A DNA stretch of 64,000 nucleotides, taken from Escherichia coli. GTDB lineage: Bacteria > Pseudomonadota > Gammaproteobacteria > Enterobacterales > Enterobacteriaceae. The translations under genes and the position numbers were made by a program. Positions 7,026 to 63,640 of the stretch are shown here, one piece after another (position 1 is the stretch's first letter; every line of letters begins with the position of its first letter). The notes below the pieces were generated by a model. That model was not told the DNA's origin, did not search any database, and saw nothing but the letters and a program-made list of their open reading frames with translations. Where the stretch lies: assembly GCF_050320075.1 (NCBI RefSeq), contig NZ_CP190018.1; one strand, written 5' to 3'.

Positions 7026-7169
7026 TTCTCCCGATTTCCTCAATTGCAATGAACCCGATGACCTGCGCATCGGGTTTTTTATTTCAGTTTCGCGGCGGGT
7101 GGCATCAGCAATAAAGTTTCCCCCTTCCTTGCCGATAACGAGATCAACTTGTTTTCAGGAAGGTGCCTT

Positions 7170-8831
7170 ATGATTAACCGTATCCGCGTAGTCACGCTGT
7201 TGGTAATGGTGCTGGGGGTATTCGCACTGTTACAGCTTATTTCCGGCAGTCTGTTTTTTTCTTCCCTTCACCATAGCCAGAAGAGCTTTGTGGTTTCCAA
7301 TCAATTACGGGAACAGCAGGGCGAGCTGACGTCAACCTGGGATTTAATGCTGCAAACGCGCATTAACCTGAGTCGTTCAGCGGTGCGGATGATGATGGAT
7401 TCCTCCAATCAACAAAGTAACGCCAAAGTTGAATTGCTCGATAGCGCCAGGAAAACATTGGCCCAGGCAGCGACGCATTATAAAAAATTCAAAAGCATGG
7501 CACCGTTACCTGAAATGGTCGCTACCAGTCGTAATATTGATGAAAAATATAAAAACTATCACACAGCGTTAACTGAACTGATTGATTATCTTGATTATGG
7601 CAATACTGGAGCTTATTTCGCTCAGCCAACCCAGGGAATGCAAAATGCAATGGGCGAAGCGTTTGCTCAGTACGCCCTCAGCAGTGAAAAAATGTATCGC
7701 GATATCATCACTGACAACGCAGATGATTACCGATTTGCCCAATGGCAACTGGCGGTTATTGCGCTGGTGGTGGTATTGATTCTGCTGGTGGCGTGGTACG
7801 GCATTCGCCGTATGTTGCTTACACCGCTGGCAAAAATTATTGCTCACATTCGCGAAATCGCCAGTGGTAACCTGGCGAATACCCTGACCATTGACGGGCG
7901 CAGTGAAATGGGCGACCTGGCGCAGAGCGTTTCACATATGCAACGCTCTTTGACTGACACCGTCACTCATGTGCGTGAAGGTTCAGATGCCATCTATGCC
8001 GGTACCCGTGAAATTGCGGCAGGCAACACCGATCTTTCCTCCCGTACTGAACAGCAGGCATCTGCGCTGGAAGAAACTGCCGCCAGCATGGAGCAGCTCA
8101 CCGCGACAGTGAAGCAAAACGCCGATAACGCCCGCCAGGCCTCACAACTGGCGCAAAGTGCCTCTGACACTGCCCAGCACGGCGGCAAAGTAGTGGATGG
8201 CGTAGTGAAAACGATGCATGAGATCGCCGATAGTTCGAAGAAAATTGCCGACATTATCAGCGTTATCGATGGTATTGCCTTCCAGACTAATATCCTCGCG
8301 CTGAATGCCGCTGTTGAAGCAGCACGAGCGGGTGAACAAGGCCGTGGTTTTGCCGTGGTGGCGGGCGAAGTGCGTAATCTTGCCAGCCGCAGCGCCCAGG
8401 CGGCAAAAGAGATCAAAGCCCTCATTGAAGACTCCGTCTCGCGCGTTGATACCGGTTCGGTGCTGGTCGAAAGCGCCGGGGAAACAATGAACAATATCGT
8501 CAATGCTGTCACTCGCGTGACTGACATTATGGGCGAGATTGCATCGGCATCGGATGAACAGAGCCGTGGCATCGATCAAGTCGCATTGGCGGTTTCGGAA
8601 ATGGATCGCGTCACGCAACAGAACGCATCGCTGGTGCAGGAATCAGCTGCCGCCGCAGCTGCGCTGGAAGAACAGGCCAGTCGTTTAACGCAAGCGGTTT
8701 CCGCGTTTCGTCTGGCAGCCAGCCCACTCACCAATAAACCGCAAACACCATCCCGTCCTGCCAGTGAGCAACCACCGGCACAGCCACGACTGCGAATTGC
8801 TGAACAAGATCCAAACTGGGAAACATTTTGA
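7170..8831 (+). CDS. tar: Methyl-accepting chemotaxis protein II (aspartate/maltose receptor) Tar
   Basis: 553 aa from [16 protein letters not shown]...; MCP signalling domain; C-terminal NWETF pentapeptide. Confidence 0.95.
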
Positions 8832-8876
8832 CGAGTATTTACTAACGCGGTCATTGCCGCCTGATGGGGAGCGTTG

Positions 8877-10478
8877 ATGTTTAATCGTATTCGAATTTCG
8901 ACCACGCTGTTTTTAATTTTGATTCTCTGCGGGATCTTGCAGATTGGCAGTAACGGCATGTCTTTTTGGGCATTTCGCGACGATTTGCAACGACTGAATC
9001 AGGTCGAACAGAGCAATCAGCAACGTGCGGCTTTAGCGCAAACTCGGGCGGTAATGTTACAGGCCAGTACCGCGCTGAACAAAGCGGGCACTCTGACGGC
9101 GCTTAGCTATCCGGCGGATGACATTAAAACGTTGATGACGACGGCGCGCGCCAGTCTGACGCAATCCACCACGCTGTTTAAAAGTTTTATGGCGATGACT
9201 GCGGGCAACGAGCACGTCAGGGCGTTGCAAAAAGAGACGGAGAAAAGTTTTGCCCGCTGGCACAACGATCTCGAACATCAGGCGACCTGGCTTGAAAGTA
9301 ATCAACTTTCGGATTTCCTCACTGCGCCGGTGCAGGAATCACAGAATGCGTTTGACGTTAACTTTGAGGCCTGGCAGCTGGAGATCAACCATGTGCTGGA
9401 AGCTGCCAGTGCGCAAAGCCAGCGTAACTATCACATTTCGGCGCTGGTGTTTATCAGCATGATTATTGTTGCAGCGCTCTACATCAGCAGTGCGCTGTGG
9501 TGGACGCGCAAGATGATTGTTCAACCACTGGCCATCATCGGTAGCCATTTTGACAGCATTGCTGCGGGTAATCTGGCGCGTCCGATTGCAGTGTATGGTC
9601 GCAATGAGATCACCGCCATTTTTGCCAGTCTGAAGACCATGCAGCAGGCTTTGCGTGGGACGGTAAGTGATGTGCGTAAGGGAAGCCAGGAGATGCACAT
9701 TGGTATCGCGGAGATTGTCGCAGGCAATAACGATCTCTCAAGTCGTACCGAACAGCAGGCGGCATCGCTGGCACAAACGGCCGCCAGTATGGAGCAATTA
9801 ACCGCCACGGTAGGGCAAAACGCCGATAACGCACGACAGGCGTCGGAACTGGCAAAAAATGCCGCGACAACGGCGCAGGCGGGCGGTGTTCAGGTCAGTA
9901 CCATGACTCACACCATGCAGGAGATCGCCACCAGCTCGCAAAAAATTGGCGACATTATCAGCGTTATCGACGGCATTGCTTTCCAGACCAATATTCTGGC
10001 CCTGAATGCGGCAGTGGAAGCGGCTCGCGCCGGAGAGCAGGGTCGTGGTTTTGCGGTAGTGGCAGGTGAAGTGCGCAATCTTGCCAGCCGTAGCGCCCAG
10101 GCAGCAAAAGAGATCAAAGGGCTGATCGAAGAGTCAGTCAATCGTGTCCAGCAGGGTTCGAAACTGGTGAATAACGCCGCCGCGACCATGACTGATATTG
10201 TCAGTTCGGTGACCCGCGTGAACGACATTATGGGAGAAATTGCTTCGGCCTCGGAAGAACAACGGCGGGGGATTGAGCAGGTTGCGCAGGCTGTCAGCCA
10301 GATGGATCAGGTGACACAGCAGAACGCCTCGCTGGTAGAAGAAGCGGCGGCGGCAACGGAACAACTGGCGAACCAGGCTGACCATCTTTCGTCGCGTGTG
10401 GCGGTATTTACCCTTGAAGAACATGAAGTAGCACGACATGAGTCGGCGCAGTTACATATTGCGCCAGTGGTATCCTGA
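8877..10478 (+). CDS. tap: Methyl-accepting chemotaxis protein IV (dipeptide receptor) Tap
   Basis: 533 aa from MFNRIRISTTLFLILIL...; MCP signalling domain near-identical to tar; no NWETF tail. Confidence 0.93.
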   Translation: MFNRIRISTTLFLILILCGILQIGSNGMSFWAFRDDLQRLNQVEQSNQQRAALAQTRAVMLQASTALNKAGTLTALSYPADDIKTLMTTARASLTQSTTLFKSFMAMTAGNEHVRALQKETEKSFARWHNDLEHQATWLESNQLSDFLTAPVQESQNAFDVNFEAWQLEINHVLEAASAQSQRNYHISALVFISMIIVAALYISSALWWTRKMIVQPLAIIGSHFDSIAAGNLARPIAVYGRNEITAIFASLKTMQQALRGTVSDVRKGSQEMHIGIAEIVAGNNDLSSRTEQQAASLAQTAASMEQLTATVGQNADNARQASELAKNAATTAQAGGVQVSTMTHTMQEIATSSQKIGDIISVIDGIAFQTNILALNAAVEAARAGEQGRGFAVVAGEVRNLASRSAQAAKEIKGLIEESVNRVQQGSKLVNNAAATMTDIVSSVTRVNDIMGEIASASEEQRRGIEQVAQAVSQMDQVTQQNASLVEEAAAATEQLANQADHLSSRVAVFTLEEHEVARHESAQLHIAPVVS

Positions 10479-10496
10479 AGTGATTGAGAAGGCGCT

Positions 10497-11357
10497 ATGA
10501 CTTCATCTCTGCCCTGTGGGCAAACGTCTTTATTGTTACAGATGACCGAGCGCCTGGCGCTTTCCGACGCGCATTTTCGGCGGATAAGTCAATTGATCTA
10601 TCAACGAGCCGGGATCGTCCTGGCCGACCATAAACGCGACATGGTTTACAACCGACTGGTTCGTCGTTTGCGTTCGCTGGGACTGACGGATTTCGGCCAT
10701 TACCTGAACTTGCTGGAATCTAATCAGCACAGCGGTGAGTGGCAGGCGTTTATCAATTCGCTGACCACGAATCTGACGGCATTTTTCCGTGAGGCGCATC
10801 ATTTTCCTCTGCTCGCGGATCACGCCCGGCGTCGTTCTGGCGAGTATCGCGTATGGAGCGCGGCGGCTTCGACCGGCGAAGAGCCGTACAGCATTGCGAT
10901 GACACTGGCTGACACATTGGGCACCGCGCCCGGACGCTGGAAAGTGTTTGCCAGCGACATTGACACCGAAGTGCTGGAAAAAGCCAGAAGCGGTATTTAT
11001 CGCCATGAAGAGTTGAAAAATCTGACGCCGCAGCAACTGCAGCGGTACTTCATGCGAGGGACGGGACCGCATCAAGGGCTGGTACGCGTGCGTCAGGAAT
11101 TGGCGAATTATGTTGATTTTGCCCCGCTGAATTTACTGGCGAAACAGTACACCGTGCCGGGGCCGTTTGATGCGATCTTCTGTCGTAACGTCATGATCTA
11201 CTTCGATCAAACTACCCAGCAGGAGATTTTGCGCCGCTTTGTTCCGCTCCTTAAACCCGACGGATTGCTGTTTGCGGGTCACTCTGAAAACTTTAGCCAC
11301 CTTGAGCGCCGCTTCACGCTGCGTGGTCAGACGGTGTATGCGCTAAGTAAGGATTAA
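10497..11357 (+). CDS. cheR: Chemotaxis protein methyltransferase CheR
   Basis: 286-aa ORF, SAM-dependent MCP methyltransferase sequence. Confidence 0.95.
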
Positions 11358-27130: not shown

Positions 27131-27189
27131 TCAAGGTCTAAATGCACTACATGGGCACCTAAACATATACATGTGATGTTGAGGTGTTA

Positions 27190-27210
27190 GAAAGGGGGCT
27201 GTTCAGCCCC
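27190..27210 (-). terminator. Rho-independent terminator for the 306-aa leftward gene
   Basis: On minus strand GGGGCTGAACAGCCCC hairpin followed by CTTTCT, immediately after the stop at 27219. Confidence 0.7.
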
Positions 27211-27218
27211 TGATAGAC

Positions 27219-28139
27219 TTAGTAATTATCCCTGACAACTTCATCATATCTTTCAATGAAGGTTAGTTGTTTATTACTTCCATTATAACTATCAACCCAT
27301 TTGTCTACAGCTTCATCGAATAGAAATAAAAAATCCGTATAATTTATATACACTACATTATCATAATATTGGGTTGGGTGACCTCTTTTACATACAGCAA
27401 TACTAAGACGTCTTTCTTTACCCTGAGTAACTTTGTGTGAATTAAGATTAGTCATGTGAAGCAATGAGTTCCTTAATTCATATAATTCGTCGGAAGTTAC
27501 TCCAAGTTTTTGTATATCTGAGTATGTATCTAACCAATTTTGAAAGACTCTTCTTTTGTTTCCAAACTCAATATAAGCTATAGTATCAATAAATGACATT
27601 AATAGCTTGAAGCTTGACAAGTAATGTTTTTTGTTAAACAGAAGCTTTATTGGTTCCATATGGTCATCATTAAGAAGTTCCTTAATGTGAAAACCATCAT
27701 CTTTCATATACTTATCAAGATAGTCTGGCAAGTCTTTTACACCTTCAATGTGATAGTTAGGTGTGTGCTTATTCCTTAATTGCTCTGACATTGATAACTG
27801 AATATCATATTGTAATTTGCCTTTAACAACGGGGGTGACTATAGCTAAAGGGTTTTCAGGTGCATTTTGAGCTTCTAATGCTAATTCAAACGGAGCAAAA
27901 GGATTACCAATCCGCAAATTTGCATTATATCTTTCAAGTGTCAATTTGTCATTTTCTAAAACAGAAGGGTGTATCCCATAAAATAAACGACAAGAAGCTA
28001 AGTCAATCTCCAAATTCCGCTTTAAAAAATCTAATTTTTGCGCATCATCGCCATCATGTTCGTGAGGTACTATTCCGGCATGTGTGATATGAACTCCATC
28101 AGGACTAAAGCAAAATATGTTGTAGATAATCTCTTTCAT
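27219..28139 (-). CDS. Hypothetical 306-aa protein, AT-rich, counter-oriented accessory gene in the element; has one R-x4-H (RNSLLH) motif
   Basis: Uninterrupted ORF with ATG start, own terminator, transcribed opposite to the rest of the element; no family recognised by eye. Confidence 0.6.
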   Translation of the reverse strand: MKEIIYNIFCFSPDGVHITHAGIVPHEHDGDDAQKLDFLKRNLEIDLASCRLFYGIHPSVLENDKLTLERYNANLRIGNPFAPFELALEAQNAPENPLAIVTPVVKGKLQYDIQLSMSEQLRNKHTPNYHIEGVKDLPDYLDKYMKDDGFHIKELLNDDHMEPIKLLFNKKHYLSSFKLLMSFIDTIAYIEFGNKRRVFQNWLDTYSDIQKLGVTSDELYELRNSLLHMTNLNSHKVTQGKERRLSIAVCKRGHPTQYYDNVVYINYTDFLFLFDEAVDKWVDSYNGSNKQLTFIERYDEVVRDNY

Positions 28140-28400
28140 ACCATTCTAACCTTCAGTGAAAATAAAGTTTTAACTATCATTAGATTATGAACAATCACAA
28201 TTGGCCTGTAAATAACAGGGCATAAACAGGTTCGTTTAGCTTGATTTTATCACTATAACTGTCTGATTTAACGGTAACTCACCAAGTATACACACAGTAA
28301 TTACACAATCCTGTTATTATGTAACTTATTGAAATATATAAATAATTTTTACATTCTTTGTTTGGGGTAAGCTGTGTAATGTTAGTCGTCCCTCTCCAGA

Positions 28401-28414
28401 CACTATATATAGTG
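28401..28414. promoter_or_regulatory. Perfect 14-bp palindrome CACTATATATAGTG in the 1.1 kb ORF-free spacer
   Basis: Read directly; embedded in a run of TATATA-containing repeats. Confidence 0.4.
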
Positions 28415-29102
28415 CTATATACAGGACTATATAACGATATATAGATGTTTGGTCACATGGTATAACTATCAAACCACTTAACGATTTCCTACGTGAAAGT
28501 TAGAAAGTGATAGTTATAGTTACCTTGTCAAATCTTCGTAGTCCCTTCTTAAAAAATCGTGAAAGGTAATCTTGTTATCTATACAGAATCTACGTAGATG
28601 CTTCTTAGTGCGCAAAACAGCTATTATGTTAAAAACGCACTGTATACGTATCAGTACTGATTTATAAGGGTTTTGTGTATTGGCTGATAAGAGGCTATAC
28701 AGCACCTTGAGAGCATGTCTTCTAAGTCATTGACATATAAGGTCACAGAAGTTTGTAGCTGTTACAGAGAAAACTGGATAGGACTTCACAGAACTATAAA
28801 ATGTTACAGCTATTGATAGGTGAAATCTTCTTGATAGATGCTTTGAAGTGTGGTGAAGGCTTTTTGAGGTGGGGCTAAACAGATATCATGAAGAAAGTCA
28901 ATAGTTGATTCGGTTTATCGAATAAACCTCATAGATATTTTAAAATTCTGCAAAGGGGGTCACATAGCTGGTGTGACGGGTACTTAGCAGCTACAGACAT
29001 CTATCAGATATTTTTGAAGATTTTTAGAAGGGGAATTTGAAGAGGGGCTACTACGATTTTATAAAAATTTTCAGATTCTGAAAAGTTACTGTACAGAATA
29101 TG

Positions 29103-29127
29103 TACAGATATCTTTAAAGTATCTGTA
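29103..29127. promoter_or_regulatory. Inverted repeat TACAGATA-N9-TATCTGTA (candidate operator) upstream of the MTase gene
   Basis: Read directly; adjacent direct repeats GTACAGA(A/T)AT and GATATCC x2. Confidence 0.4.
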
Positions 29128-29249
29128 AAAACTTTTAAGATAAAAGATAGATATCCCAGAAAGGATATCCGTTTAGAAAACCTATTAAGTATCTCTTAAA
29201 AGAGAGTAAACCTTGTCAAGAGTGATTGCAATAAAAATTTTTATTTCTT

Positions 29250-29912
29250 ATGTCAATTGAGTGTATTTTAATCGGGAAACATCATGGGGGTTCTGATTAC
29301 TGGAGAACTCCATTTTTGTTATTTAAGAACTTACACCGTGAATTTATTTTCAGTCTGGATGGTGCTGCAACTAAGCACGATACGTTATTACCCCGCTTTA
29401 CGGATGATATTCACAATCAGTCATGGGATGGTGAACGGGTATTCTGTAACCCACCATACAGCGACACTAAAACATTCCTCGTAAAAGCGTCTGAGGCAGA
29501 TTTATCGGTATTCCTGATACCGTACCGACCCCAAACCATATACTGGCTTAAGCACATCTTCACAAACCCGCTTTGCCATGAAATCCGTATTCTTCATCGT
29601 GCAGTTAAATACCTTCCACCAGCAGGGCATAACAGGCTTACTATTAGGTCGCCGTTTCCAAGTGCAGTCGTTGTTTTTAAAAAAGAACCACGCAGGCATG
29701 AAATTACGCAGATGGTTTGCTGTGCTGATACATTGCTACCGTTAACCATCATTAACAGAGGAGGCTTGAGAGGAAGGCCCACCATTTACCCACCTGAGAC
29801 GCTCGACAGCTTCATAAAACTATACAGGCAAGGCAAACCCATTAAGTGCATTGCAGATGCTCTCAGAATGCCTCTGAGCACGTCATACAGGATTGCTCAA
29901 AGGTTGAGCTAG
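29250..29912 (+). CDS. Phage-type DNA N6-adenine methyltransferase (Dam family) with C-terminal HTH-like tail
   Basis: SDYWRTPF...FSLDGAA...FCNPPY motifs typical of phage Dam MTases; C-terminal GRP...IADALRMPLSTSYRIAQRL resembles an HTH. Confidence 0.75.
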   Translation: MSIECILIGKHHGGSDYWRTPFLLFKNLHREFIFSLDGAATKHDTLLPRFTDDIHNQSWDGERVFCNPPYSDTKTFLVKASEADLSVFLIPYRPQTIYWLKHIFTNPLCHEIRILHRAVKYLPPAGHNRLTIRSPFPSAVVVFKKEPRRHEITQMVCCADTLLPLTIINRGGLRGRPTIYPPETLDSFIKLYRQGKPIKCIADALRMPLSTSYRIAQRLS

Positions 29913-30052
29913 AATTCTCATAAATATGGTCATTTACAAGACAGGTGATTTAGATATTAAGAGGTATCCCTGTGAACAATAAATGACCAATCAGTAATTA
30001 TCCTGTGAAATAATTGTTGCAATTTATAATCACACATGGTATAGTTTCATAG

Positions 30053-30197
30053 TGGACTGATAAAAAAGTTCATGTCTTGAAGTGGTAACACTTGGGGAGG
30101 TGTCAGATGATTGACGTATATTAACCTCTCATTCATGGTAATACCTCAGCGTTTTAATCATCGTACTGTTTCAGGCATGGACTTCTTTATCAGTCCA
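30053..30197. promoter_or_regulatory. 145-bp segment bracketed by a perfect 12-bp inverted repeat (TGGACTGATAAA / TTTATCAGTCCA) upstream of the initiator gene
   Basis: Read directly at 30053-30064 and 30186-30197. Confidence 0.4.
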
Positions 30198-30276
30198 TCA
30201 ATCCCCCAGATATTTTAATCACACAGGCTAATCGGTTTTATCCGGTTGGCCTTTTCACGTATGAGGTAATTTATGA

Positions 30277-31245
30277 ATGAAAAAAGAAACTAATGCTTTT
30301 ATTATGGTAGATAAACGAGTTGCACAATTCCCTAAAACATTAAAGCCAATTGACCGCTTGGTATATTTCACTATGCTGGATGGTGCTGATTATTACGAAT
30401 CTAAGTTCGGGAGATACGCACCAAGTATTGACTATTTGATGGTTATGTCTGGTGCTACACGTAATACAGTTATTGATTCACTTAAGAGACTTGAGTCACA
30501 CAGACTTATCGAAAAGACCAATGTAAAGGGTCAGCAAAGTATTTTTAAAGTATTCACGTTGGATGAGCGTCCAGAGGTCTTATCAGAACCTACCCTTGAT
30601 GAGCGTCGTAGAGCTAAATTATCAGGTCAACCAGAATCTGACAGTAACCCAACCAAAAATTGGTTACCTACCCAACCAGAATTTGGTTACCTACCTAACC
30701 AGAATTTGGTTACATGTAATACTGAATATAAAGACAAAAATATAAATACTGAAGAAGAAAGACTAAAAGGGAACTTTGAAGAAGAATCTCTTAAGAAGGG
30801 AGCTTCGCTCTGTGATTCACATGAATGTGATATTAAAGAAGATGACTTTCTTTCTTTGGATGAATTAAATGATTTTCTCTCTATGAATGAATCTGGCCTT
30901 GATAGTGAAGCTACTAAAGAGGCTGTTAAAAAGGAAGATAAAATCTCTGATGTGAATATCGATAGTGACCATAAAAACACACAGTGCCCCGCCACTGATG
31001 ATGAGATGGACCCCTTCGATGATTACCTTGATGAAGAGTCAGAGCGTGAAAAAGCCATTAAGAGGGTAGAGAAGAAAAAGAGATTCGAGCTTGCAAGACA
31101 AAAGAACAAAGTATCGGGTTTAGACCCATTCGATGACAGTGACGATGATGACTTTTCTTTCACACCAAGAAAGAAACAAACTCAGGATGACAAGAAGCAA
31201 AAAATTAAACCGAAGATGTATTTTGCTGGTGGAGGTATGCGCTAA
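30277..31245 (+). CDS. Putative replication initiator / replisome organiser (N-terminal winged-helix-like domain, acidic C-terminal tail)
   Basis: N-terminus resembles phage initiator DNA-binding domains; tandem iterons inside the ORF; highly acidic low-complexity C-terminal half. Confidence 0.55.
   Translation: MKKETNAFIMVDKRVAQFPKTLKPIDRLVYFTMLDGADYYESKFGRYAPSIDYLMVMSGATRNTVIDSLKRLESHRLIEKTNVKGQQSIFKVFTLDERPEVLSEPTLDERRRAKLSGQPESDSNPTKNWLPTQPEFGYLPNQNLVTCNTEYKDKNINTEEERLKGNFEEESLKKGASLCDSHECDIKEDDFLSLDELNDFLSMNESGLDSEATKEAVKKEDKISDVNIDSDHKNTQCPATDDEMDPFDDYLDEESEREKAIKRVEKKKRFELARQKNKVSGLDPFDDSDDDDFSFTPRKKQTQDDKKQKIKPKMYFAGGGMR
30641..30714. repeat. Tandem 23-bp direct repeats (iterons) inside the initiator ORF: TTGGTTACCTACC(C/T)AACCAGAAT
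   Basis: Two full units at 30660-30682 and 30683-30705 (1 mismatch) plus flanking partial units. Confidence 0.8.
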
Positions 31246-31541
31246 TGAAAGAATATCACGGTGAAAAGAGATACAAAGATTACCTGTTAAAGCGTTATAG
31301 CATTTCTCGTGAAGGCCACTTAATGAAGGATACTCACGGGGAAGTTTACCGGATTAGACCGAAGAAAGAAGGGAGGGATTATTTCTTTTACGATGGTGTG
31401 ACAGATTTAAAGATTGATGCTTTGAAGTTTGCGGCGCTGTATCATTATGATATCTGGGACTCAGTCCACCAGCTACGATTAAAAGACGGTGACCCCGGTA
31501 ATCTGAGGGCCACCAATATTATCAAGGGAAAGTGCCGGTAA
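31245..31541 (+). CDS. Small HNH_3/NUMOD4-like protein (98 aa), catalytic His not evident
   Basis: YSISREGHLMKDTHGEVYRIRPKKEGRDYFFYDG...LKDGDPGNLRATN resembles NUMOD4/HNH_3 layout; overlaps initiator stop. Confidence 0.45.
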   Translation: MKEYHGEKRYKDYLLKRYSISREGHLMKDTHGEVYRIRPKKEGRDYFFYDGVTDLKIDALKFAALYHYDIWDSVHQLRLKDGDPGNLRATNIIKGKCR

Positions 31542-31864
31542 GTCCACCAGCTATTTATTTATTGAAATCTCTATCTCAACACGAAGAAGTTTAAGTCGAA
31601 TTGTAAGCTTTGTCTTTTTTGTAATGACTCGATTCATAACGCAAAACACCAATAGCACAATAAATACCGCAAAGCCCAACGAGCTAAAACGATGAGATTC
31701 AATAATTGCTGTGAAAAAATCATGCATTAATTTTCCTTTTGCGAAAGGAAACAGCACCTGTATCAGCCCCTATAACCATAATATCATGTAAATGAGATGT
31801 TGACAATATGTTAAATAAATGTTATGATTGTAGTATGAGTAAGAGATTTAAGGAGATTTTTACA

Positions 31865-32155
31865 ATGACTCACACAGTTACGCGCCTTTTGCCAGAGGCA
31901 TTTGAACGACTGGCAGCAATCAAAGCCAAATATCCCGATATGAAGCACACAGCGCTTGTTGGAGAGCTTTTAAAAGAGTCGGTAACCCTGACCCCTTTCG
32001 ATAACGTTAAGGGCGTTGCAGAGGGTTCTAAGGCCATCAGAATCACAACGGACCAACTGGAACTACTCAAAGCACAGTCCGCAGTAGCAGGTTGCTCAAT
32101 GATTCAGGTGTTAAGCGCAAAGGTCCATCAATTAGCGGATAGGCTGGGGGTTTAA
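31865..32155 (+). CDS. Hypothetical small protein (96 aa)
   Basis: AAGGAG RBS 8 nt upstream of ATG at 31865; ORF-track start at 31808 is probably an extension; stop overlaps next gene (TAATG). Confidence 0.5.
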   Translation: MTHTVTRLLPEAFERLAAIKAKYPDMKHTALVGELLKESVTLTPFDNVKGVAEGSKAIRITTDQLELLKAQSAVAGCSMIQVLSAKVHQLADRLGV

Positions 32156-32580
32156 TGCTATGCACATTTGATTATCATGCGTTTTATCGCCATAGAGGCC
32201 ACCTTGTCCGTGAGAATAGCGGAACATGGAAAGATTTAACTCGTAATGCTGAACCCTTCACACACCAGCAATTAAAATCCCGCTTCTCCAGATGGAAGAA
32301 TGCACCAGCAGATACTGGTGATTTTGAGATTATCCATACCTTCGATTATGCCTCAGAAGATGACCTTCACGATGCAATTAAGCTGATTGAAGACTTCAAT
32401 ACCTCAGAAGATGTGGATGGTGACAAATATAAATCCCGTGGTAACCGCTATAACCGTGATGATATCACTCAGGCCATAAATGCTGGTCAATCTCAGCGAT
32501 ACATTACAGAAAAATATGGTATTTCACGGAGACAGTATTTCTACGTTAAATCATTGATTAATAAAGACAATTCAAAATAA
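32155..32580 (+). CDS. Hypothetical protein (141 aa) with C-terminal HTH-like segment
   Basis: Translationally coupled to upstream gene; C-terminus ...QSQRYITEKYGISRRQYFYVK resembles a Hin/resolvase-type HTH. Confidence 0.5.
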   Translation: MLCTFDYHAFYRHRGHLVRENSGTWKDLTRNAEPFTHQQLKSRFSRWKNAPADTGDFEIIHTFDYASEDDLHDAIKLIEDFNTSEDVDGDKYKSRGNRYNRDDITQAINAGQSQRYITEKYGISRRQYFYVKSLINKDNSK

Positions 32581-32741
32581 CCATCTCAGTAACGGTAGAA
32601 TGCACTTTACAGGCAGAGTTGCACCTTAATTTGATAAATTACCTTACCAGCCAGTGCAACTCCCTCTGTAACCCGCATGATTACTGGTCTCAGAATGGCT
32701 ATTTTAAGAGGTCTGAGATGTGTTTTGTAGGAGATTTAAAA

Positions 32742-33065
32742 ATGAACAACTTCCCATTACAGATTTTCGTTGATAACGACACCGCTATGATGGTGCAAAG
32801 CTTCAGTGATGCAGGTATTAGCATTGATTTTGACAGGCTGTTAAAGCTAATGGCTGATAATGAAGAAAACGTCTCTGACTTTATTCACTCGGTGGAGTTT
32901 AACGAGCCTCGAATGATGTTACCAATTACAGACAGTAATATGAAAAGATTGGTTATTGAGCAAACGAACAAATACAGTATTTCCCCAGAGCAATTTTTGA
33001 AAGGTGCTGTGACAATCCTGTACAGCGATAATATTTTGGTTACGGATTCCGTGAGGGTTCACTAA
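32742..33065 (+). CDS. Hypothetical small protein (107 aa)
   Basis: GGAG-type RBS before ATG at 32742; ORF-track start at 32619 is probably an extension. Confidence 0.45.
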   Translation: MNNFPLQIFVDNDTAMMVQSFSDAGISIDFDRLLKLMADNEENVSDFIHSVEFNEPRMMLPITDSNMKRLVIEQTNKYSISPEQFLKGAVTILYSDNILVTDSVRVH

Positions 33066-33359
33066 TGGGCTTAATAATTGCTTGGACGTTGCTTGGCTTA
33101 TTTGTTGGTTGCTGGGTAGGCAGCACAGTAAATAGAAATTGATGTTACCAATCTGTTAAAAAGCTGTTGACAAATAACCTTAAGCATGAGATGATGGTAA
33201 TAGGGGAGAGCAACTCTCTCTTATTTTTCTTTCAAAATAATCCGATGGATGGATATTCTGAATTGGAAAGGTGCAATGCTTTTCGTCATGGCCTTTCAGT
33301 TTAGTCTGAGAGGCTATCTCAAAAAGTGCTTAATCATTCATTGAACCCTTTACAGCTTT

Positions 33360-33387
33360 GCCCTAACTCATGATTAGGGCTTTCTTT
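33360..33387 (+). terminator. Rho-independent terminator-like hairpin
   Basis: Stem GCCCTAA/TTAGGGC with 7-nt loop followed by TTTCTTT. Confidence 0.55.
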
Positions 33388-33456
33388 AAGAGTTTTTAAA
33401 CAGAGCTTTTAAAGAAAGTTTTTCCTGAAACTTCGTTAACGTTAAAGCAAACCTTC

Positions 33457-33520
33457 AAAGCCCTTCACAGATGAGGATGATTCCATGAATATCCGAATCA
33501 CCTATGTTTAGGGCTTTTTT
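33457..33520 (+). ncRNA. Long-loop hairpin with U-tract (candidate small RNA 3' end or attenuator)
   Basis: Outer stem AAAGCCCT/AGGGCTTT enclosing inner GGAT/ATCC stem, followed by T6. Confidence 0.3.
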
Positions 33521-33636
33521 CAGCTTTTAAAAAGCATACTTGGCAAACGCCTTTTAAGCCTCTTCTAAGTTCGAGGATGTCAGGTGTGCTTTTTAAAAAC
33601 TGAAACATAAATTATCTTAGAAGAGGAAAGGTATTA

Positions 33637-34341
33637 ATGGCTATCCGTGATGAAAATGAAATGATTATTGAAAACAAACCAAGTGCACTTGATATTCACG
33701 AATTAAGTTTGCGTGAATCTTTTGATAGAGCTTGGCGGGAATCACACGAAGTAAATAAAGGTCCATATATTCCACCAGAACCACTCGAGATTCCAAGAGT
33801 TGAAATTGATTTTTCTATGAACGAACGGTGTGAACTTGATTTGAAGTTGAAGCTACAACGCCGATATTTCCAAGCTATTAAAGACTCTCAAGAAGCAATG
33901 AGAAGTGTTTATGAGAAAATTCAGTCCAAGCTTGAAGACGAAATTGACGAAATGGCTATTTTGATGGAGCTTCAAACCAATCCTTATGCTTATTTCTCTC
34001 GACTAGACCGTGACGGTTGGGGGTATGACCCTGTAGAGATTGGTAAAGTGATTGCAGATTTACCAGAAGGTCAAAGGGTTATTCGTACGGAAAGGGCCAT
34101 CAGAGCGCCACATCAACTGTCTCTAATTGTTGCTGATAAATCACAAGCTGAGCTTGAAGAAATTGCCAAAGAGAAACTGATGAAAGCAAGAGAAAATGAG
34201 ATTAATTTGCTGAAATCAAGACTGGCTAAGCTGATTAGTGACCATCAAGCGCTGGCTAAGGAGTACCGTCAAGAGTTGGCACAGATTATCAGCTTCAATG
34301 ATTTTCTGAGTGTTCCACGAGAATTTAGCAAGGCTGTTTGA
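33637..34341 (+). CDS. Hypothetical protein (234 aa), charged coiled-coil-rich
   Basis: ORF with ATG and GAGG-type RBS; no family recognised. Confidence 0.55.
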   Translation: MAIRDENEMIIENKPSALDIHELSLRESFDRAWRESHEVNKGPYIPPEPLEIPRVEIDFSMNERCELDLKLKLQRRYFQAIKDSQEAMRSVYEKIQSKLEDEIDEMAILMELQTNPYAYFSRLDRDGWGYDPVEIGKVIADLPEGQRVIRTERAIRAPHQLSLIVADKSQAELEEIAKEKLMKARENEINLLKSRLAKLISDHQALAKEYRQELAQIISFNDFLSVPREFSKAV

Positions 34342-34364
34342 TTATGAATTAAAAGAGGTGATTA

Positions 34365-34583
34365 ATGTATGAAGACCGTTTGGAAACTATCAAGGCAGTT
34401 TGTGAAAAACTTAAAAACCAACCACGTAAACCAAAAACGGTAAAGAGTAAGCATCAGCCTGTCACCTCAAACAGCAAAATAAAGATTCGCAAAATTCCTT
34501 CGTGGTGCATTGACCGTATTCCGGTTGGTTCAAGAATTATTCGTGAAGATGGTGATTATCATTGGGTATCAGTTGTTGGTTAG
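34365..34583 (+). CDS. Hypothetical small basic protein (72 aa)
   Basis: RBS GAGGTG before ATG; gene-dense context. Confidence 0.45.
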   Translation: MYEDRLETIKAVCEKLKNQPRKPKTVKSKHQPVTSNSKIKIRKIPSWCIDRIPVGSRIIREDGDYHWVSVVG

Positions 34584-34671
34584 TTAGTAAAAATCTACGG
34601 GAGAGATTATCGAGTGATATCGGTAGCTCTCCCTTTTTCGTATATGAACACTTAAGAGGTGAAAAATATGA

Positions 34672-36804
34672 ATGAGCAAATTCACAGTTGATAGTTTTAT
34701 CGTTGAATTAAGCTTCAATGAAAACATTATTAAGGGCTTGCAAAGAGTTGAAAAGGCAGCTTTGCAGTCAGCACAAAGAATTGAAAAGAACCTAAATAAA
34801 GGTTTCAGGATTAATACAAAGCAGCTTGATAGTAATTTAACGGCTTCTTTAGGGCAGCTTGAAAGGAAGTTTAATAAGGCCTTTGACAAGATTGAACAGA
34901 GAGCAAGAAATACTAAAGCTTTCCAGTTTACCACCAGATTTAATGACACTGTTAATCCTCCAAAACAACCGAGACAGCCACGAATTAGCGGCAACAGAGC
35001 AATCACAGCAGCTTACTCAGCGAATATGAGCAAGCTAAAAGGCTTTGACCCTATTTTGCAGAAATACATCAAATCTCAGTTTTACGGGCTATCTGCTAAA
35101 GCCGGTTCAATGGATTCTTCAAAATTCAATGAGAAGTTAGCTCAGTTAAACGCTTCAGTCAGAGAAGCAATTGCTAAAGCCAGAGGTCATACATCCACCA
35201 GCATTAATGGTGACAGAGCAGCTAATAGTCTTGATAACCTGTCTTCAGCAGCAGTTAAAACAGCAGGTGCATTTATCTCAATGCAGGCTGTATTAGCCAG
35301 TTATCAGAAGATTATGGAAATTGGTTTACAGCGTGCAAGTGCTGAACGTTCAATTGATTTCGTATTTGATAAAGATGCAGGTCAAGTAAAAGAGTTCACA
35401 AAGTCATTAGCTCAAACAACGGGTTTAGATATCGCTGAACTGCAATCACAGTTTGCTGGTTTTGGTGCTTCAGCTAAAGAGTCTATGGGCATTCAAGGTT
35501 CTGAAGAACTTTTTAAAAATATGATTGGCTATGCTCGTCTGATGGGGAGAAGTGAAGAAGAGATTAAGCGAGCACTGACAGCATTATCACAGATGGCTGG
35601 TAAGGGTCAGGTTATGGCTGAAGAGCTTAAGGGGCAATTAGCTGAAGCTGTTCCTGGTATGGTTCAGGTATTCGCTAAAGCAACCGGAAGGAATGAACAA
35701 GAGCTATTTGATGCCATGAAGAAGGGGGCTTTAAAATCTGCCGATACTCTTCAGAAGGTCACTCAGGAACTGAATAAACAAATCACCGCTAAAGGTGGCT
35801 GGAAAGCTATTTCAGAAAGTACACAGGCACAACTAGGGAACCTGAAAAACTCTTGGAATACCACGCTTGATAGTATCTTCAGAGGTTCTGAAGATGGTCT
35901 GCAAGATTTTACAAGAAGCTTAACAACGCTTTTAAACGCTCTTGGTGGAAGTGGTAAAAGTCTTGGTGAATCTCTTGGTAGTCTCATGACTTCTATGTCA
36001 CATGGTGTCGATTCATTGACTGATATCAGCTACAGGGTAAGAGCATTCTTCGATGAGGTGACATTAGCTTACCGTTCACTAAATGACACTCAGAAAAAAA
36101 TTGTTGATGGTTTATCTGATGGGTTAATTGATGGTTTGAAGATGCTTGCCGTAGCTGTTACTGCTCAAAAGGCTGCAAATGTAGCTGGAGGCTTGTTAAA
36201 CCTTGCAAATGCTGTTACTTCATTCGGTGATGCTGTTAATAAAGCTAAAGCTGGCAAGGCTGGTTCTTCAGGTGGTGCGCTAAATAAAGTTGGTAGAGTT
36301 GTTCTTTATGCTGAGTTGGTGAACTTTGCTCTTGATAATTTAAACCCTGAAGCGGCTAAGAATCCGAACTTACACCAATCAGGTATTGGAACAGAGACAA
36401 ACTTCAACCCTGAATACAAAGGCGATTCATCTAAACCAAACCAAATTAATGATGGATGGGCTAAGATTGGTAGTTCTATCGCTGACTGGTTTAATGGTGC
36501 GGCTAATAAAATTGCTAACTTCCAAGACCCGATGAATAACTTTGTTAATAACACACAATCAACTCCACCAGCTATCACAGGTGACATGGTTAATAGCAAT
36601 GCTCAACTTGCTATGGCTGTATCAGAGTTAGGAAGAAAGGTAGACGCTTTAACAGTAGAAGCTAAGAAGCCTTTATCAGTTAATATCAAAGGTGAAGCAA
36701 TTGTTAGACCGGATGAACCAGCTTTCTTTACTTTCAATCAATCAGCTAATGACCAGTTCACGCAGGATATGCTCTTAAGTTCAAGCTATCCAGAGGAAGA
36801 ATGA
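34672..36804 (+). CDS. Tape-measure-domain-like protein (710 aa)
   Basis: Central segment ...MAEELKGQLAEAVPGMVQVFAKATGRNEQELFDAMKKGALKSADTLQKV... resembles the conserved phage tape-measure domain; Ala/Gly/Ser-rich low-complexity C-terminal part. Confidence 0.55.
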   Translation: MSKFTVDSFIVELSFNENIIKGLQRVEKAALQSAQRIEKNLNKGFRINTKQLDSNLTASLGQLERKFNKAFDKIEQRARNTKAFQFTTRFNDTVNPPKQPRQPRISGNRAITAAYSANMSKLKGFDPILQKYIKSQFYGLSAKAGSMDSSKFNEKLAQLNASVREAIAKARGHTSTSINGDRAANSLDNLSSAAVKTAGAFISMQAVLASYQKIMEIGLQRASAERSIDFVFDKDAGQVKEFTKSLAQTTGLDIAELQSQFAGFGASAKESMGIQGSEELFKNMIGYARLMGRSEEEIKRALTALSQMAGKGQVMAEELKGQLAEAVPGMVQVFAKATGRNEQELFDAMKKGALKSADTLQKVTQELNKQITAKGGWKAISESTQAQLGNLKNSWNTTLDSIFRGSEDGLQDFTRSLTTLLNALGGSGKSLGESLGSLMTSMSHGVDSLTDISYRVRAFFDEVTLAYRSLNDTQKKIVDGLSDGLIDGLKMLAVAVTAQKAANVAGGLLNLANAVTSFGDAVNKAKAGKAGSSGGALNKVGRVVLYAELVNFALDNLNPEAAKNPNLHQSGIGTETNFNPEYKGDSSKPNQINDGWAKIGSSIADWFNGAANKIANFQDPMNNFVNNTQSTPPAITGDMVNSNAQLAMAVSELGRKVDALTVEAKKPLSVNIKGEAIVRPDEPAFFTFNQSANDQFTQDMLLSSSYPEEE

Positions 36805-36967
36805 TTTCTTATATATCCGTGTGCTACGTGATTTCTTCTGAACAGATATACCCACTAAAAATTATTTTTTACGTAGCTCACGCTTAACAGAGAAAATACT
36901 TATATATCAAAGGCTTGGTTAAAAATGATTAAAATACACTAAGCCTTTGAAATCAAAGGAGAATTTA

Positions 36968-37741
36968 ATGATTTACTCTAATCAGATTCGTTACAGTGGT
37001 AAAGATGGCGTTTACTTTCATCTACAAGGCCAGCCAGATAATTTCTTGTCACTATCAGCTACTGAGAACATGGAATTTGACAGCCCTATGATGGTTACCA
37101 CTCAAAATATGCAATCAGGGCAGACTGTCACAGATAATGTAATGCGTTCACCCAGAACTATTTCAATCAGTGGTGTGGTTGTAGTTGGTGAATCCGGTAG
37201 TATCCTTATCTCAAGAGATAATAAGCTGGTGGAAAACTTCATAGACACTCTTGAAAACTGGCGTGACCAGAAGCAAATTATCTCAGTTGTCTGTAAAGAT
37301 GGTATTAAGATTGACGACTCAATTATTACAAACTTTAAAGCCTCTAAAGATGTTGGTATTGCCAATGGTCTTAGAATCCAATTAACTTTTCAGGAAATTA
37401 ACTTTAAAGCTATTGTGGGTCAGACTGATATCTCGGCTGCGACCGGAAGGACTTCTACCACAAGTGATGGTGGTGCTACCAGTAAAAAGAATACAGGGAA
37501 CACTACGACAAGCTTAGGTAACGGTATGTTGATGTGTCAGGAGCTATATAATCGCTCTACGAGTGAACTTACTAATGAGCAACTTCAAGCCCGTATCAAT
37601 TGTGGTAAAAATGTCAGAGTTAAGAACGGAAAAAGCACCTTCTCAGATGCCGCTAATGAGCAAGCTTCAAAGGTGCTTAATAATGCTGGTACAGGTAGTA
37701 CTTTGAAGAAGTATTCTGTTAATCCTAACAAGCGATACTGA
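36968..37741 (+). CDS. Hypothetical protein (257 aa), possible virion/tail-associated
   Basis: AAGGAG RBS before ATG at 36968 (ORF-track start 36947 is TTG); directly follows the tape-measure-like gene. Confidence 0.45.
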
Positions 37742-37755
37742 CGATAGAATCTCAA

Positions 37756-39279
37756 CTATATGATAACCTCATCAACATCTATTAAACCCCTCTCAGTGAC
37801 TTCAGAAAGCGACTGTATAGCCTCTGTAACGTTGTCTGAGGGGTTTTCTGTTATTGGTAAGGTGATTGCTTTACCGTTGTGAAAAGTTACTTTACAGCGA
37901 CGTTTAGCAGTATTTAAAACGACCTCTTTAACAGCACTTTTGATTATCAGTTGTGCTTCAATCCTTCCCGCCTTTGTAGTCAAGTCACAATCAGACAAAC
38001 AACCCACATCAATAGATTTAAGGCGTTGTGTCTCCTTCTCGATATCCGCATCAACTTGTGATAGCTCATTCTTTAGTTGTCTTAGTTTGCTGGTAATAGC
38101 GGACAAGTCTTCAATTTCAAGTGATAGCTGTACCAGCTTTTCAATATTGCTTGAGATGTGTTCACGGTGTAGCTTCAGTGTGTCTATGGTATTCGTCATA
38201 TCGCTATCAAATCGGTCAAGACGAGATAGCAGGGCAAGCAATGTACCATCGGTTTGCTTACGTGAAAGTCCTTTAGCACTACAACGGTTTTCATTACGAA
38301 GAGGACAACGATAAATCCCGTTTCTTGTATCGCTAAAGCCTGTGATAATCAAAGCATGACCACATTCAGAACAACGGATAACACCTTTGAAAAGATTCAC
38401 AGCCATTGGCTTATCTGAAGCAGGTTTTCTACCGTAACGAGCATATGATAGTTGTTGAACTTTGTAGAATGTTGTTTCATCTATAATTGCAGGATAATAA
38501 CCAGATATCTCCTCACAGCCTTTAGGTGTGAAGTAACCAATTACAGAGCGATTCTTCAAAAGGTCTTGCACTGAGGTTTGACCAAACTTACCTGCTTTGT
38601 ACTGGTTAAGCGTCTGGTGACCTTCAGCATTAAGAGTTCTGACAATCTCCCAGATAGACTTACCCTCTAACCGTAGCTGAAAGCACCTCTTCACAGTCTC
38701 CACTTTCTCAGGTATCACAGAGAAGCTTTTACGGTCATCATTAAGCTTAAGCCATGCAGGACAACGCCTAGAAATCTTGATACCAGCTTTAGCAGCTTCT
38801 TTCTTTGCATCCCATGCAGCTTGTATACGCTCAGCCTTACGTAATGATTCCTCATGCGCCCTTTGCATTATCAAAATGCTTTTAATCAGAGCTAACGGGT
38901 CTTTAAGAGATTCCCTTGTGTAATGTTCACCATCGGACAGGGTGACTACATCTACACCAGAGCGAAGAATGTTTCTGAGTAGCTCACTTGCTTGGTCTAC
39001 GTCCTGACGTGAGAGACGGTCTAAACTCTCGATTAGTAGTGTATCACCAGCTTTAACAAGCCCTTTCTCGATAGCGGTTAAAAAGTCACCTAAGCCACCT
39101 TTCAAGTGCTTACCAGTGAACCCGCTAACGCCTAAATCACGAAAAGTAAGGGATTCATCCAGATAGTACTCAGGATGAGCCTTAAGCCAATCAGTGACCA
39201 TCTTAGCCTGTCGTCTTAATGAGTCGCCTCTGGATTGCTTCTCAGATGAAAACCGGATGTAACTGATTGCACGTTTCAT
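37756..39279 (-). CDS. Large serine recombinase (integrase)
   Basis: 507 aa; N-terminal resolvase-type catalytic domain (YIRFSSEKQ with catalytic Ser), recombinase domain, Cys-rich zinc ribbon (CSECGH...YRCPLRNENRC), C-terminal coiled coil; adjacent to attR. Confidence 0.9.
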   Translation of the reverse strand: MKRAISYIRFSSEKQSRGDSLRRQAKMVTDWLKAHPEYYLDESLTFRDLGVSGFTGKHLKGGLGDFLTAIEKGLVKAGDTLLIESLDRLSRQDVDQASELLRNILRSGVDVVTLSDGEHYTRESLKDPLALIKSILIMQRAHEESLRKAERIQAAWDAKKEAAKAGIKISRRCPAWLKLNDDRKSFSVIPEKVETVKRCFQLRLEGKSIWEIVRTLNAEGHQTLNQYKAGKFGQTSVQDLLKNRSVIGYFTPKGCEEISGYYPAIIDETTFYKVQQLSYARYGRKPASDKPMAVNLFKGVIRCSECGHALIITGFSDTRNGIYRCPLRNENRCSAKGLSRKQTDGTLLALLSRLDRFDSDMTNTIDTLKLHREHISSNIEKLVQLSLEIEDLSAITSKLRQLKNELSQVDADIEKETQRLKSIDVGCLSDCDLTTKAGRIEAQLIIKSAVKEVVLNTAKRRCKVTFHNGKAITLPITENPSDNVTEAIQSLSEVTERGLIDVDEVII

Positions 39280-39346
39280 TGTTCACCTCACCAATAGCAG
39301 TTGGGCTTGTACCAACCCCTAGATTGTATCGCTTTAGATGGTGTAT

Positions 39347-63524: not shown

Positions 63525-63640
63525 AATCAGCGCTCATTGATATAATGCTTTTATTTTAACACTTTAGGTAAATATATCAATTGAGTAATCATGATGATTT
63601 ACTGGCGGGATTTCTCCGCAAACGACACAGTGTCAGTAAG

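What the first reader, a model, noticed from the sequence alone, without database searches (positions are those of the whole stretch)
8220..10120. Near-identical ~200 bp segments in tandem paralogues tar and tap
The signalling-domain coding segments around 8220-8420 (tar) and 9920-10120 (tap) are nearly identical at the nucleotide level (for example GACATTATCAGCGTTATCGA and the [29 protein letters not shown] coding block). Such direct repeats 1.7 kb apart are substrates for homologous deletion producing tar-tap fusions and may confuse short-read assembly.
Basis: seen in the sequence. Interest (0 to 1): 0.2.

Follow-up and report, generated by a model that had tools for sequence, protein, structure and literature searches.

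The report
Conserved tar/tap signalling-domain repeat in E. coli

Summary
The window is the E. coli flhDC–mot–che region, with tar at 7170-8831 and tap at 8877-10478. The repeat is real, but the offset is 1701 nt rather than 1700, and "near-identical" is too strong.

- **Identity:** Of the 34 differences, 29 are at third codon positions.
- **Exact matches:** the longest shared runs are 21, 18 and 16 nt. No k-mer of 22 nt or longer is shared.
- **Controls:** unlinked paralogues are about as similar (tar–tsr 79%, tar–trg 78%). Over the whole cytoplasmic region tar–tsr (77%) exceeds tar–tap (73%). The similarity therefore reflects protein constraint on the receptor hairpin tip, not gene conversion between neighbours.
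- **Deletion idea: supported.** Three of 5,426 complete E. coli genomes carry an exact 1701-nt in-register tar–tap fusion. These come from two independent events, with crossovers in the two longest exact tracts. The two fusion proteins are listed on 71 and 28 contigs of the larger collection. Laboratory tar–tap hybrids have been cited since Slocum et al. 1987.
- **Assembly idea: not supported.**
- **Common tap loss:** the loss seen in about 20% of genomes is a separate 1374-nt deletion inside tap.

Verdict: known biology, low interest.

The parts
7170..8831 (+). tar (methyl-accepting chemotaxis protein II, 553 aa, ends in NWETF)
   Evidence: NCBIfam NF011622 1197.9 bits against a cutoff of 900; Pfam TarH+HAMP+MCPsignal. 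RefSeq annotation of the matching strain 746, which differs from the window at only 5 bases over 1-27130. C-terminus checked.
8877..10478 (+). tap (methyl-accepting chemotaxis protein IV, 533 aa, no NWETF)
   Evidence: NCBIfam NF007309 1179.2 bits against a cutoff of 903; Pfam TarH+HAMP+MCPsignal; annotation; C-terminus ...IAPVVS.
8010..8653 (+). tar copy of the nucleotide-level homologous region (cytoplasmic methylation-helix and hairpin coding part)
   Evidence: blastn tar nt 841-1484 against tap nt 835-1478: 73.6% over 651 nt, E 2.5e-110; the repeat finder D1/D2.
9711..10354 (+). tap copy of the homologous region, 1701 nt downstream and in frame
   Evidence: 29 of 34 differences at third codon positions
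8250..8417 (+). 56-codon run with identical amino acids in Tar and Tap ([14 protein letters not shown]...AQAAKEIK); 143/168 nt identical
   Evidence: the same block is nearly invariant in Tsr, Trg and Aer
8249..8269 (+). longest exact shared tract (21 nt here, 24 nt in K-12-type alleles); partner at 9950-9970; crossover site of the natural fusion in strains ET474 and PEC389
8114..8131 (+). second-longest exact shared tract (18 nt); partner at 9815-9832; crossover site of the natural fusion in strain ETEC4088
8403..8418 (+). third-longest exact shared tract (16 nt); partner at 10104-10119; no natural crossover seen here

Best explanation
The two segments are the parts of the tandem paralogues tar and tap that encode the cytoplasmic hairpin tip of methyl-accepting chemotaxis proteins. 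This is the most conserved part of the family; it contacts CheA and CheW. Purifying selection keeps 56 consecutive amino acids identical. The DNA therefore stays about 83-85% identical while most synonymous sites have diverged. The level of similarity owes nothing to the genes being neighbours. Because the copies are direct, in frame and 1701 nt apart, rare crossovers in the few exact tracts of 18-24 nt delete exactly 1701 nt. The product is one hybrid gene: the Tar sensing domain, transmembrane segments and HAMP domain joined to the Tap signalling tip and C-terminus, which lacks the NWETF docking site for CheR/CheB. The cell also loses Tap. Shown here: the homology, the paralogue controls, and natural fusions with mapped crossovers. 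Inferred: the recombination pathway (RecA-dependent at the minimal homology length, or RecA-independent slippage or annealing) and the phenotype of the hybrid.
For: The homology is real: 73.6% over 651 nt, E 2.5e-110, and 83.1% in the segment. Differences are mostly synonymous third-position changes. Both genes pass the Tar and Tap equivalog cutoffs and share the TarH-HAMP-MCPsignal architecture. Unlinked paralogues show the same pattern: in the segment tar-tsr is 79.1%, tap-tsr 78.6% and tar-trg 77.6%; across the whole region tar-tsr is 77.1% against tar-tap 72.9%. The same-codon fraction at identical residues is 0.59 for tar-tap against 0.49 pooled for the other pairs (Fisher p=0.18), and p=0.59 against tar-tsr. 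A synthetic in-register fusion query found three complete genomes with a single-piece match and no tap. A flank-only census found exactly those three of 5,426. Diagnostic-site mapping shows one clean switch from tar to tap with 0 conflicting sites out of 290, located in the 21/24-nt tract (ET474 and PEC389) and in the 18-nt tract (ETEC4088). The halves differ from K-12 tar and tap by only 0-2 nt. The chance that two uniformly placed crossovers both hit the two longest tracts is about 0.005. The two fusion proteins are listed on 71 and 28 contigs from NCBI, ENA and Logan. Every place examined has the context cheA-cheW-fusion-cheR-cheB-cheY-cheZ. Literature: the hairpin region is highly conserved and binds CheA/CheW, and NWETF is present in Tar and Tsr but absent from the minor receptors (PMC3676780). 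Slocum et al. 1987 is cited for functional chemoreceptor chimeras (PMC2229510).
Against: Observed identity in the segment (83.1%) exceeds a null that keeps both protein sequences and redraws tap codons from MCP codon usage (74.8 +/- 2.3%, P about 2e-4). Protein constraint plus average codon bias therefore does not explain everything. The same excess appears in unlinked pairs (same-codon 0.40-0.57 against 0.37-0.39 expected), so it is family-wide. It could be residual ancestry or site-specific codon preference. tar-tap has the highest value in the segment (0.59), so a very old or small conversion tract cannot be strictly excluded. The recombination pathway and the phenotype of the hybrid were not tested. 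I could not read Slocum 1987 or Weerasuriya 1998 (not held).
Confidence: 0.9

Rival explanations
1. Concerted evolution: gene conversion between the adjacent copies keeps this segment homogenised, so the similarity is a consequence of the tandem arrangement.
For: Identity exceeds the codon-usage null.
Against: The difference from unlinked pairs is not significant (Fisher p=0.18 against pooled pairs, p=0.59 against tar-tsr). Over the whole homologous region unlinked tar-tsr is more similar than tar-tap (77.1% against 72.9%). There is no long identical tract: the maximum is 21 nt, and the codon-redraw null gives P(>=21) = 0.045-0.06. The sliding same-codon profile of tar-tap tracks that of tar-tsr.
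Confidence: 0.05
2. Similarity at the protein level only: the nucleotide resemblance is no more than identical amino acids plus codon bias would produce.
For: 29 of 34 differences are at third codon positions, and 56 identical residues are encoded by only 85% identical DNA. Megablast finds no hit.
Against: blastn detects the homology directly at E 2.5e-110. Observed identity exceeds the protein-plus-codon-usage null by about 8 points in the segment and about 6 points region-wide (P<=2e-4). The DNA similarity is sufficient for real crossovers in nature.
Confidence: 0.04
3. The 'natural fusions' are assembly collapses across the shared tract, not real genotypes.
For: K-12-type alleles share a 24-nt exact tract. 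A de Bruijn assembler limited to k<=21-23 could in principle join across it.
Against: The same two junctions recur with identical protein sequence on 71 and 28 contigs from several sources, including three finished chromosomes from different countries and hosts. The surrounding operon is intact. No word of 25 nt or longer is shared, so standard k values and read lengths resolve the two copies. A collapse would not remove 1701 nt cleanly in frame in long-read assemblies.
Confidence: 0.03

Closest known systems
E. coli K-12 tar-tap tandem chemoreceptor genes of the meche operon (tar-tap-cheR-cheB-cheY-cheZ)
   Same: Same genes, order and lengths. The window region is 98.1% identical to K-12 MG1655 over 3.4 kb (H33). 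Equivalog models are passed.
   Different: Only allelic differences. For example, a T at 8270 shortens the longest tar/tap exact tract from 24 nt (K-12) to 21 nt.
Laboratory Tar-Tap hybrid transducers (Slocum, Halden & Parkinson 1987, J Bacteriol 169:2938; Weerasuriya, Schneider & Manson 1998, J Bacteriol 180:914)
   Same: Tar N-terminal portion joined in register to the Tap C-terminal portion through the homologous cytoplasmic region. From my own recollection, Slocum et al. described spontaneous tar-tap deletions formed by recombination between these homologies. References verified; papers not held.
   Different: The fusions found here are in wild isolates (frog and pig faeces; China, Korea, Belgium), not laboratory mutants. 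Their junctions are mapped to 24- and 18-nt tracts. Whether they match the published junctions could not be checked.
Loss of tap in phylogroup B2 / uropathogenic E. coli (Lane et al. 2006; Borziak et al. 2013, as cited in PMC3559539 and PMC12623472)
   Same: A deletion at the same locus that removes Tap function. It is seen here in about 1,100 of 5,426 genomes.
   Different: It is a 1374-nt deletion inside tap (window about 9008-10369) between short imperfect repeats. It leaves tar intact plus a 153-nt tap stub. It does not use the tar/tap homology and creates no hybrid.
Other E. coli MCP paralogues (tsr, trg, aer)
   Same: Same conserved hairpin-tip block, with 65-79% nt identity to tar or tap in the segment.
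   Different: They are unlinked, so recombination with them would rearrange the chromosome rather than give a simple viable deletion.

Membership tests
Methyl-accepting chemotaxis proteins (MCP) | MCPsignal domain (PF00015) with a HAMP domain and an N-terminal ligand-binding domain | tested here: met
   Tar: MCPsignal 211 bits, TarH 142, HAMP 46. Tap: 191, 145, 38. All are above the gathering cutoffs.
Tar (MCP-II) equivalog NF011622 | Full-length score at or above the curated cutoff of 900 bits | tested here: met
   1197.9 bits, residues 1-553 of 553.
Tap (MCP-IV) equivalog NF007309 | Full-length score at or above the curated cutoff of 903 bits | tested here: met
   1179.2 bits, residues 1-533 of 533.
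High- versus low-abundance receptor classes | C-terminal NWETF pentapeptide present in Tar and absent in Tap | tested here: met
   Tar ends ...QDPNWETF and Tap ends ...LHIAPVVS. Class definition from PMC3676780.
Direct repeats acting as substrates for homologous deletion (tar-tap hybrid formation) | Existence of in-register deletion products whose junctions lie within shared sequence | tested here: met
   Three of 5,426 genomes have an exact 1701-nt deletion. Crossovers map to the 21/24-nt and 18-nt tracts, with 0 of 290 conflicting diagnostic sites.
Direct repeats acting as substrates for homologous deletion (tar-tap hybrid formation) | Dependence on RecA or homologous-recombination machinery | not testable with these tools
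   Requires deletion-frequency assays in recA+ and recA- backgrounds.
Unequal crossing-over between tandem paralogues | Reciprocal duplication product (tar - tap'-'tar - tap) | tested here: not met
   No record matches a synthetic tap-to-tar junction at 95% or above; all top matches are 2-piece normal loci. The tap 5' region gives 5,374 places in 5,372 records, 2 of them on plasmids. The records with a second place could not be listed.
Concerted evolution / gene conversion between tandem paralogues | Lower synonymous divergence between the tandem pair than between unlinked paralogues | tested here: not met
   Same-codon fraction 0.59 against 0.49 pooled (p=0.18). Across the whole region it is 0.51 for both tar-tap and tar-tsr. 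tar-tsr is more similar than tar-tap overall.
Assembly-confounding repeats | Exact or near-exact identity over at least typical k-mer or read length | tested here: not met
   One shared 21-mer and zero shared 22-mers; 83% identity over 200 nt; no megablast hit.

The most novel reading that the evidence does not exclude
The two natural Tar-Tap hybrid lineages are not neutral accidents. They would be selected receptor remodelling in animal-gut E. coli (pig, frog): one step removes dipeptide/pyrimidine sensing by Tap and turns the major aspartate/maltose receptor into an NWETF-less, Tap-like signaller with changed adaptation kinetics. Their persistence on about 100 contigs from several countries would then reflect a fitness benefit. 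The 18-24-nt tracts would act as a built-in evolutionary switch.
Probability: 0.12. Interest if true: 0.4.

Novelty: already known. Interest (0 to 1): 0.15.

Why it matters
For the window itself, very little: this is the canonical tar-tap paralogy of E. coli, and the conserved signalling tip is textbook knowledge. There are two modest practical points. First, in-register tar-tap fusions do exist in wild isolates. NCBI's pipeline annotates them simply as 'tar' because they still pass the Tar equivalog cutoff (1049 and 1004 bits against 900). Surveys of chemoreceptor repertoires that rely on gene names will therefore miss them and will misread those strains as carrying a normal Tar. Second, the crossovers sit in the two longest exact tracts (24 and 18 nt). 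This is a natural illustration of how short a perfect match can be and still support deletion between diverged repeats.

Tried and rejected
1. I suspected that the roughly 1,100 genomes lacking a full tar-tap match were tar-tap homologous deletions. Rejected: they carry a 1374-nt deletion inside tap that leaves tar intact.

2. I looked for the reciprocal duplication (tap'-'tar hybrid) with a synthetic junction and by counting copies of the tap 5' region. None was found. The top hit, H139, turned out to be an IS1-mediated truncation of tap with loss of cheR through flhE.

3. I tested gene conversion through synonymous-codon identity against the unlinked paralogues tsr, trg and aer. No significant excess was found.

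4. I tested a null of protein constraint plus codon usage only. It explains about 75 of the 83 percentage points but not all.

5. I tried to read Slocum 1987 (PMC212330), Weerasuriya 1998 (PMC106972) and Lane 2006 (PMC1540019). None is held, so only their citations in other papers could be verified.

6. The first paper search for 'tar-tap' mostly returned strain genotypes such as delta(tar-tap)5201.
Full report
**What the region is**

The window is the E. coli flagellar region II, running otsA-uspC-flhDC-motAB-cheAW-tar-tap-cheRBYZ-flhBAE and onward. Window 7100-10500 is 100% identical to several E. coli chromosomes (for example strain 746, NZ_CP023353.1) and 98.1% identical to K-12 MG1655. 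RefSeq annotation of strain 746 places tar at 7170-8831 and tap at 8877-10478, both on the + strand, followed by cheR. This annotation transfers to window coordinates because the window is collinear with strain 746 over 1-27130, with 5 mismatches. Tar scores 1197.9 bits on the NCBIfam MCP-II equivalog (cutoff 900). Tap scores 1179.2 bits on the MCP-IV equivalog (cutoff 903). Both have the Pfam TarH-HAMP-MCPsignal architecture.

**Checking the observation**

The two segments are related, but the register is 1701 nt rather than 1700. At offset 1701, 8220-8420 matches 9921-10121 at 167/201 = 83.1%. At offsets 1699, 1700 and 1702 identity is 24-26%.

- The quoted 20-mer occurs at exactly 8250 and 9951, within a 21-nt exact run (8249-8269 / 9950-9970).
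- The quoted 29-residue peptide is encoded at 8331-8417 and 10032-10118, with 76/87 identical bases.
The repeat finder reports 300 nt at 77% and 185 nt at 74%. blastn aligns tar nt 841-1484 to tap nt 835-1478 at 73.6% over 651 nt, E 2.5e-110.
- 'Nearly identical' is wrong. There are 34 differences in 201 nt, 29 of them at third codon positions (26 synonymous and 4 non-synonymous codon differences). A run of 56 identical amino acids is encoded by only 143/168 identical bases.
- Megablast finds no hit between the genes. They share one 21-mer and no 22-mer.

**Why the segments are similar**

I aligned Tar, Tap and the three unlinked K-12 paralogues Tsr, Trg and Aer (loci) and back-translated to codons.

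- The block [31 protein letters not shown] is essentially invariant in all five proteins. This is the hairpin tip of the cytoplasmic domain, described as highly conserved and as the CheA/CheW interaction surface (PMC3676780).
- Over the whole homologous region (tar 8001-8640) the unlinked pair tar-tsr (77.1%) is closer than tar-tap (72.9%).
- At positions with identical, degenerate amino acids the same codon is used in 37/63 cases for tar-tap, against 237/481 pooled for the other nine pairs (Fisher p=0.18). Against tar-tsr the p value is 0.59. Region-wide, both tar-tap and tar-tsr are at 0.51.
- A null that keeps both proteins and redraws tap codons from MCP codon usage gives 74.8 +/- 2.3% in the segment. 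Protein constraint thus accounts for most of the identity but not all (observed 83.1%, P about 2e-4).
- The residual excess is shared by unlinked pairs (observed same-codon 0.40-0.57 against 0.37-0.39 expected). I therefore attribute it to residual ancestry or site-specific codon preference, not to conversion between neighbours.
- A 21-nt exact run is only marginally unusual under that null (P = 0.045-0.06).

**Testing the deletion idea**

I built a synthetic in-register fusion (tar 7400-8259 joined to tap 9961-10800) and searched 5,426 complete E. coli genomes. Three chromosomes matched as a single 1700-nt piece with no tap annotated:

- ET474 (frog faeces, China)
- PEC389 (pig, Korea)
- ETEC4088 (pig, Belgium)

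A census that does not depend on crossover position used only unique flanks (tar 7300-7899 plus cheR 10497-11096). It found exactly these three genomes and no others. In each, a 1608-nt gene sits between cheW and cheR, which is the length expected for a 1701-nt in-register deletion.

Across 290 sites that distinguish tar from tap, each fusion shows a single switch with no conflicting site.

- With K-12-type parents, ET474 and PEC389 (identical over 4.1 kb) cross over inside CGACATTATCAGCGTTATCGACGG.
- ETEC4088 crosses over inside GCAAAACGCCGATAACGC (18 nt).
- These are the two longest exact tracts in the 640-nt homology. The chance that two uniformly placed events both fall there is about 0.005.
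- The fusion halves differ from K-12 tar and tap by 0-2 nt.

The two fusion proteins are listed on 71 and 28 contigs from NCBI, ENA and Logan. Every place examined has the context cheA-cheW-fusion-cheR-cheB-cheY-cheZ. This argues for real circulating lineages rather than assembly artefacts.

No reciprocal duplication product was detected.

**Known background**

Functional chimeras between closely related chemoreceptors are cited to Krikos 1985, Slocum 1987, Tatsuno 1994 and Weerasuriya 1998 (PMC2229510). [quoted passage not shown] From my own knowledge, Slocum, Halden and Parkinson reported that many spontaneous tar-tap deletions arise by recombination between the homologous C-terminal coding regions and yield Tar-Tap hybrids. 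I could not open that paper. My only addition is that such fusions exist in wild isolates and where their junctions lie.

**Likely consequence of the fusion (inference)**

The hybrid keeps Tar's periplasmic domain, transmembrane helices and HAMP domain. In the ET474 type it also keeps the first methylation helix. It acquires Tap's tip-distal helix and C-terminus, which lacks NWETF. The minor receptors lack this CheR/CheB docking site and are poorly methylated on their own (PMC3676780). The hybrid should therefore sense aspartate and maltose but depend on Tsr for adaptation, and the cell loses Tap-mediated taxis.

The pathway of formation is not determined. Tracts of 18-24 nt lie at or below the minimal efficient length I recall for RecA-dependent recombination in E. 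coli (my own knowledge). RecA-independent slippage or annealing is an equally good candidate.

**The assembly claim**

No shared word of 22 nt or longer exists, and identity is 83% over 200 nt. Standard assemblers and read mappers will therefore not confuse the copies.

**The common tap loss is something else**

About 1,100 of 5,426 genomes match only 60% of the tar-tap query. In strain HH45 this is a 1374-nt deletion within tap (window about 9008-10369) between short imperfect repeats. It leaves tar intact and a 153-nt tap stub. This corresponds to the known loss of Tap in B2/uropathogenic strains (PMC3559539, PMC12623472). It did not use the tar/tap homology.

**Verdict**

The explanation is ordinary paralogy under strong protein constraint. 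The deletion hypothesis is correct and already known, and the assembly concern is unfounded. Novelty: already known. Interest: low.

Noticed in passing
window 27131-39362: A 12.2-kb prophage-remnant-like island is inserted into yecE (DUF72), splitting the gene, with a 7-nt overlap at the junction. In an identical copy (NZ_CP123240.1) it is annotated with a large recombinase-family protein (window about 37756-39279, minus strand), a tape measure protein (34672-36804), a baseplate protein (36968-37741), a DNA N6-adenine methyltransferase (29250-29912) and eight hypothetical proteins. Strain 746, which otherwise matches the window, lacks it. Only 2 of 5,426 complete E. coli genomes carry it at 80% coverage or more with 100% identity.
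   Followed up: partly
L001 3278-3430 (NZ_CP116411.1); equivalent to window about 9008-10369: About 20% of complete E. coli genomes carry a 1374-nt deletion inside tap, leaving a 153-nt stub annotated as 'Tar ligand binding domain-containing protein'. This is the known B2/UPEC tap loss. Its junction lies at short imperfect repeats (GAATCAGGTCGA / GAACCAGGCTGA in the window), not at the tar/tap homology.
   Followed up: yes
L003/L004 971-2578, L005 971-2578: The natural tar-tap fusion genes are annotated by PGAP simply as 'tar: methyl-accepting chemotaxis protein II'. They still score 1049 and 1004 bits on the Tar equivalog (cutoff 900), so name-based receptor surveys will miss both the fusion and the loss of NWETF.
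   Followed up: yes
L007 371-1810 (NZ_CP018245.1, strain 472; also H78, H79): An in-frame 222-nt deletion inside tar between 19-nt direct repeats (tar nt 1160-1178 and 1382-1400, window about 8329-8347 and 8551-8569). It removes much of the conserved hairpin-tip coding block, and the product is annotated only as a 'Tar ligand binding domain-containing protein'.
   Followed up: partly
L006 2078-3598 (NZ_CP047658.1, LD39-1; also H73-H76): An in-frame 81-nt deletion in tap (tap is 1521 nt instead of 1602; the break is near tap nt 885/961 with a 6-nt overlap), found in at least five genomes.
   Followed up: partly
L011 3329-5231 (NZ_CP141736.1, strain 2023CK-01509): An IS1A element truncates tap and abuts argS, so cheR-cheB-cheY-cheZ-flhBAE are deleted in this clinical isolate. 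Separately, strain S1-IND-01-A has an ISVsa5 insertion in tar (H43).
   Followed up: no
window about 62355-64000: By collinearity with strain 746, an ISEc46 (IS200/IS605 family) element lies at the far end of the window: TnpB/InsQ RNA-guided endonuclease at about 62355-63524 on the minus strand, and tnpA from about 63581. Strain 746 also has an extra IS200 tnpA between mepM and lpxM (705 nt) that the window lacks.
   Followed up: no
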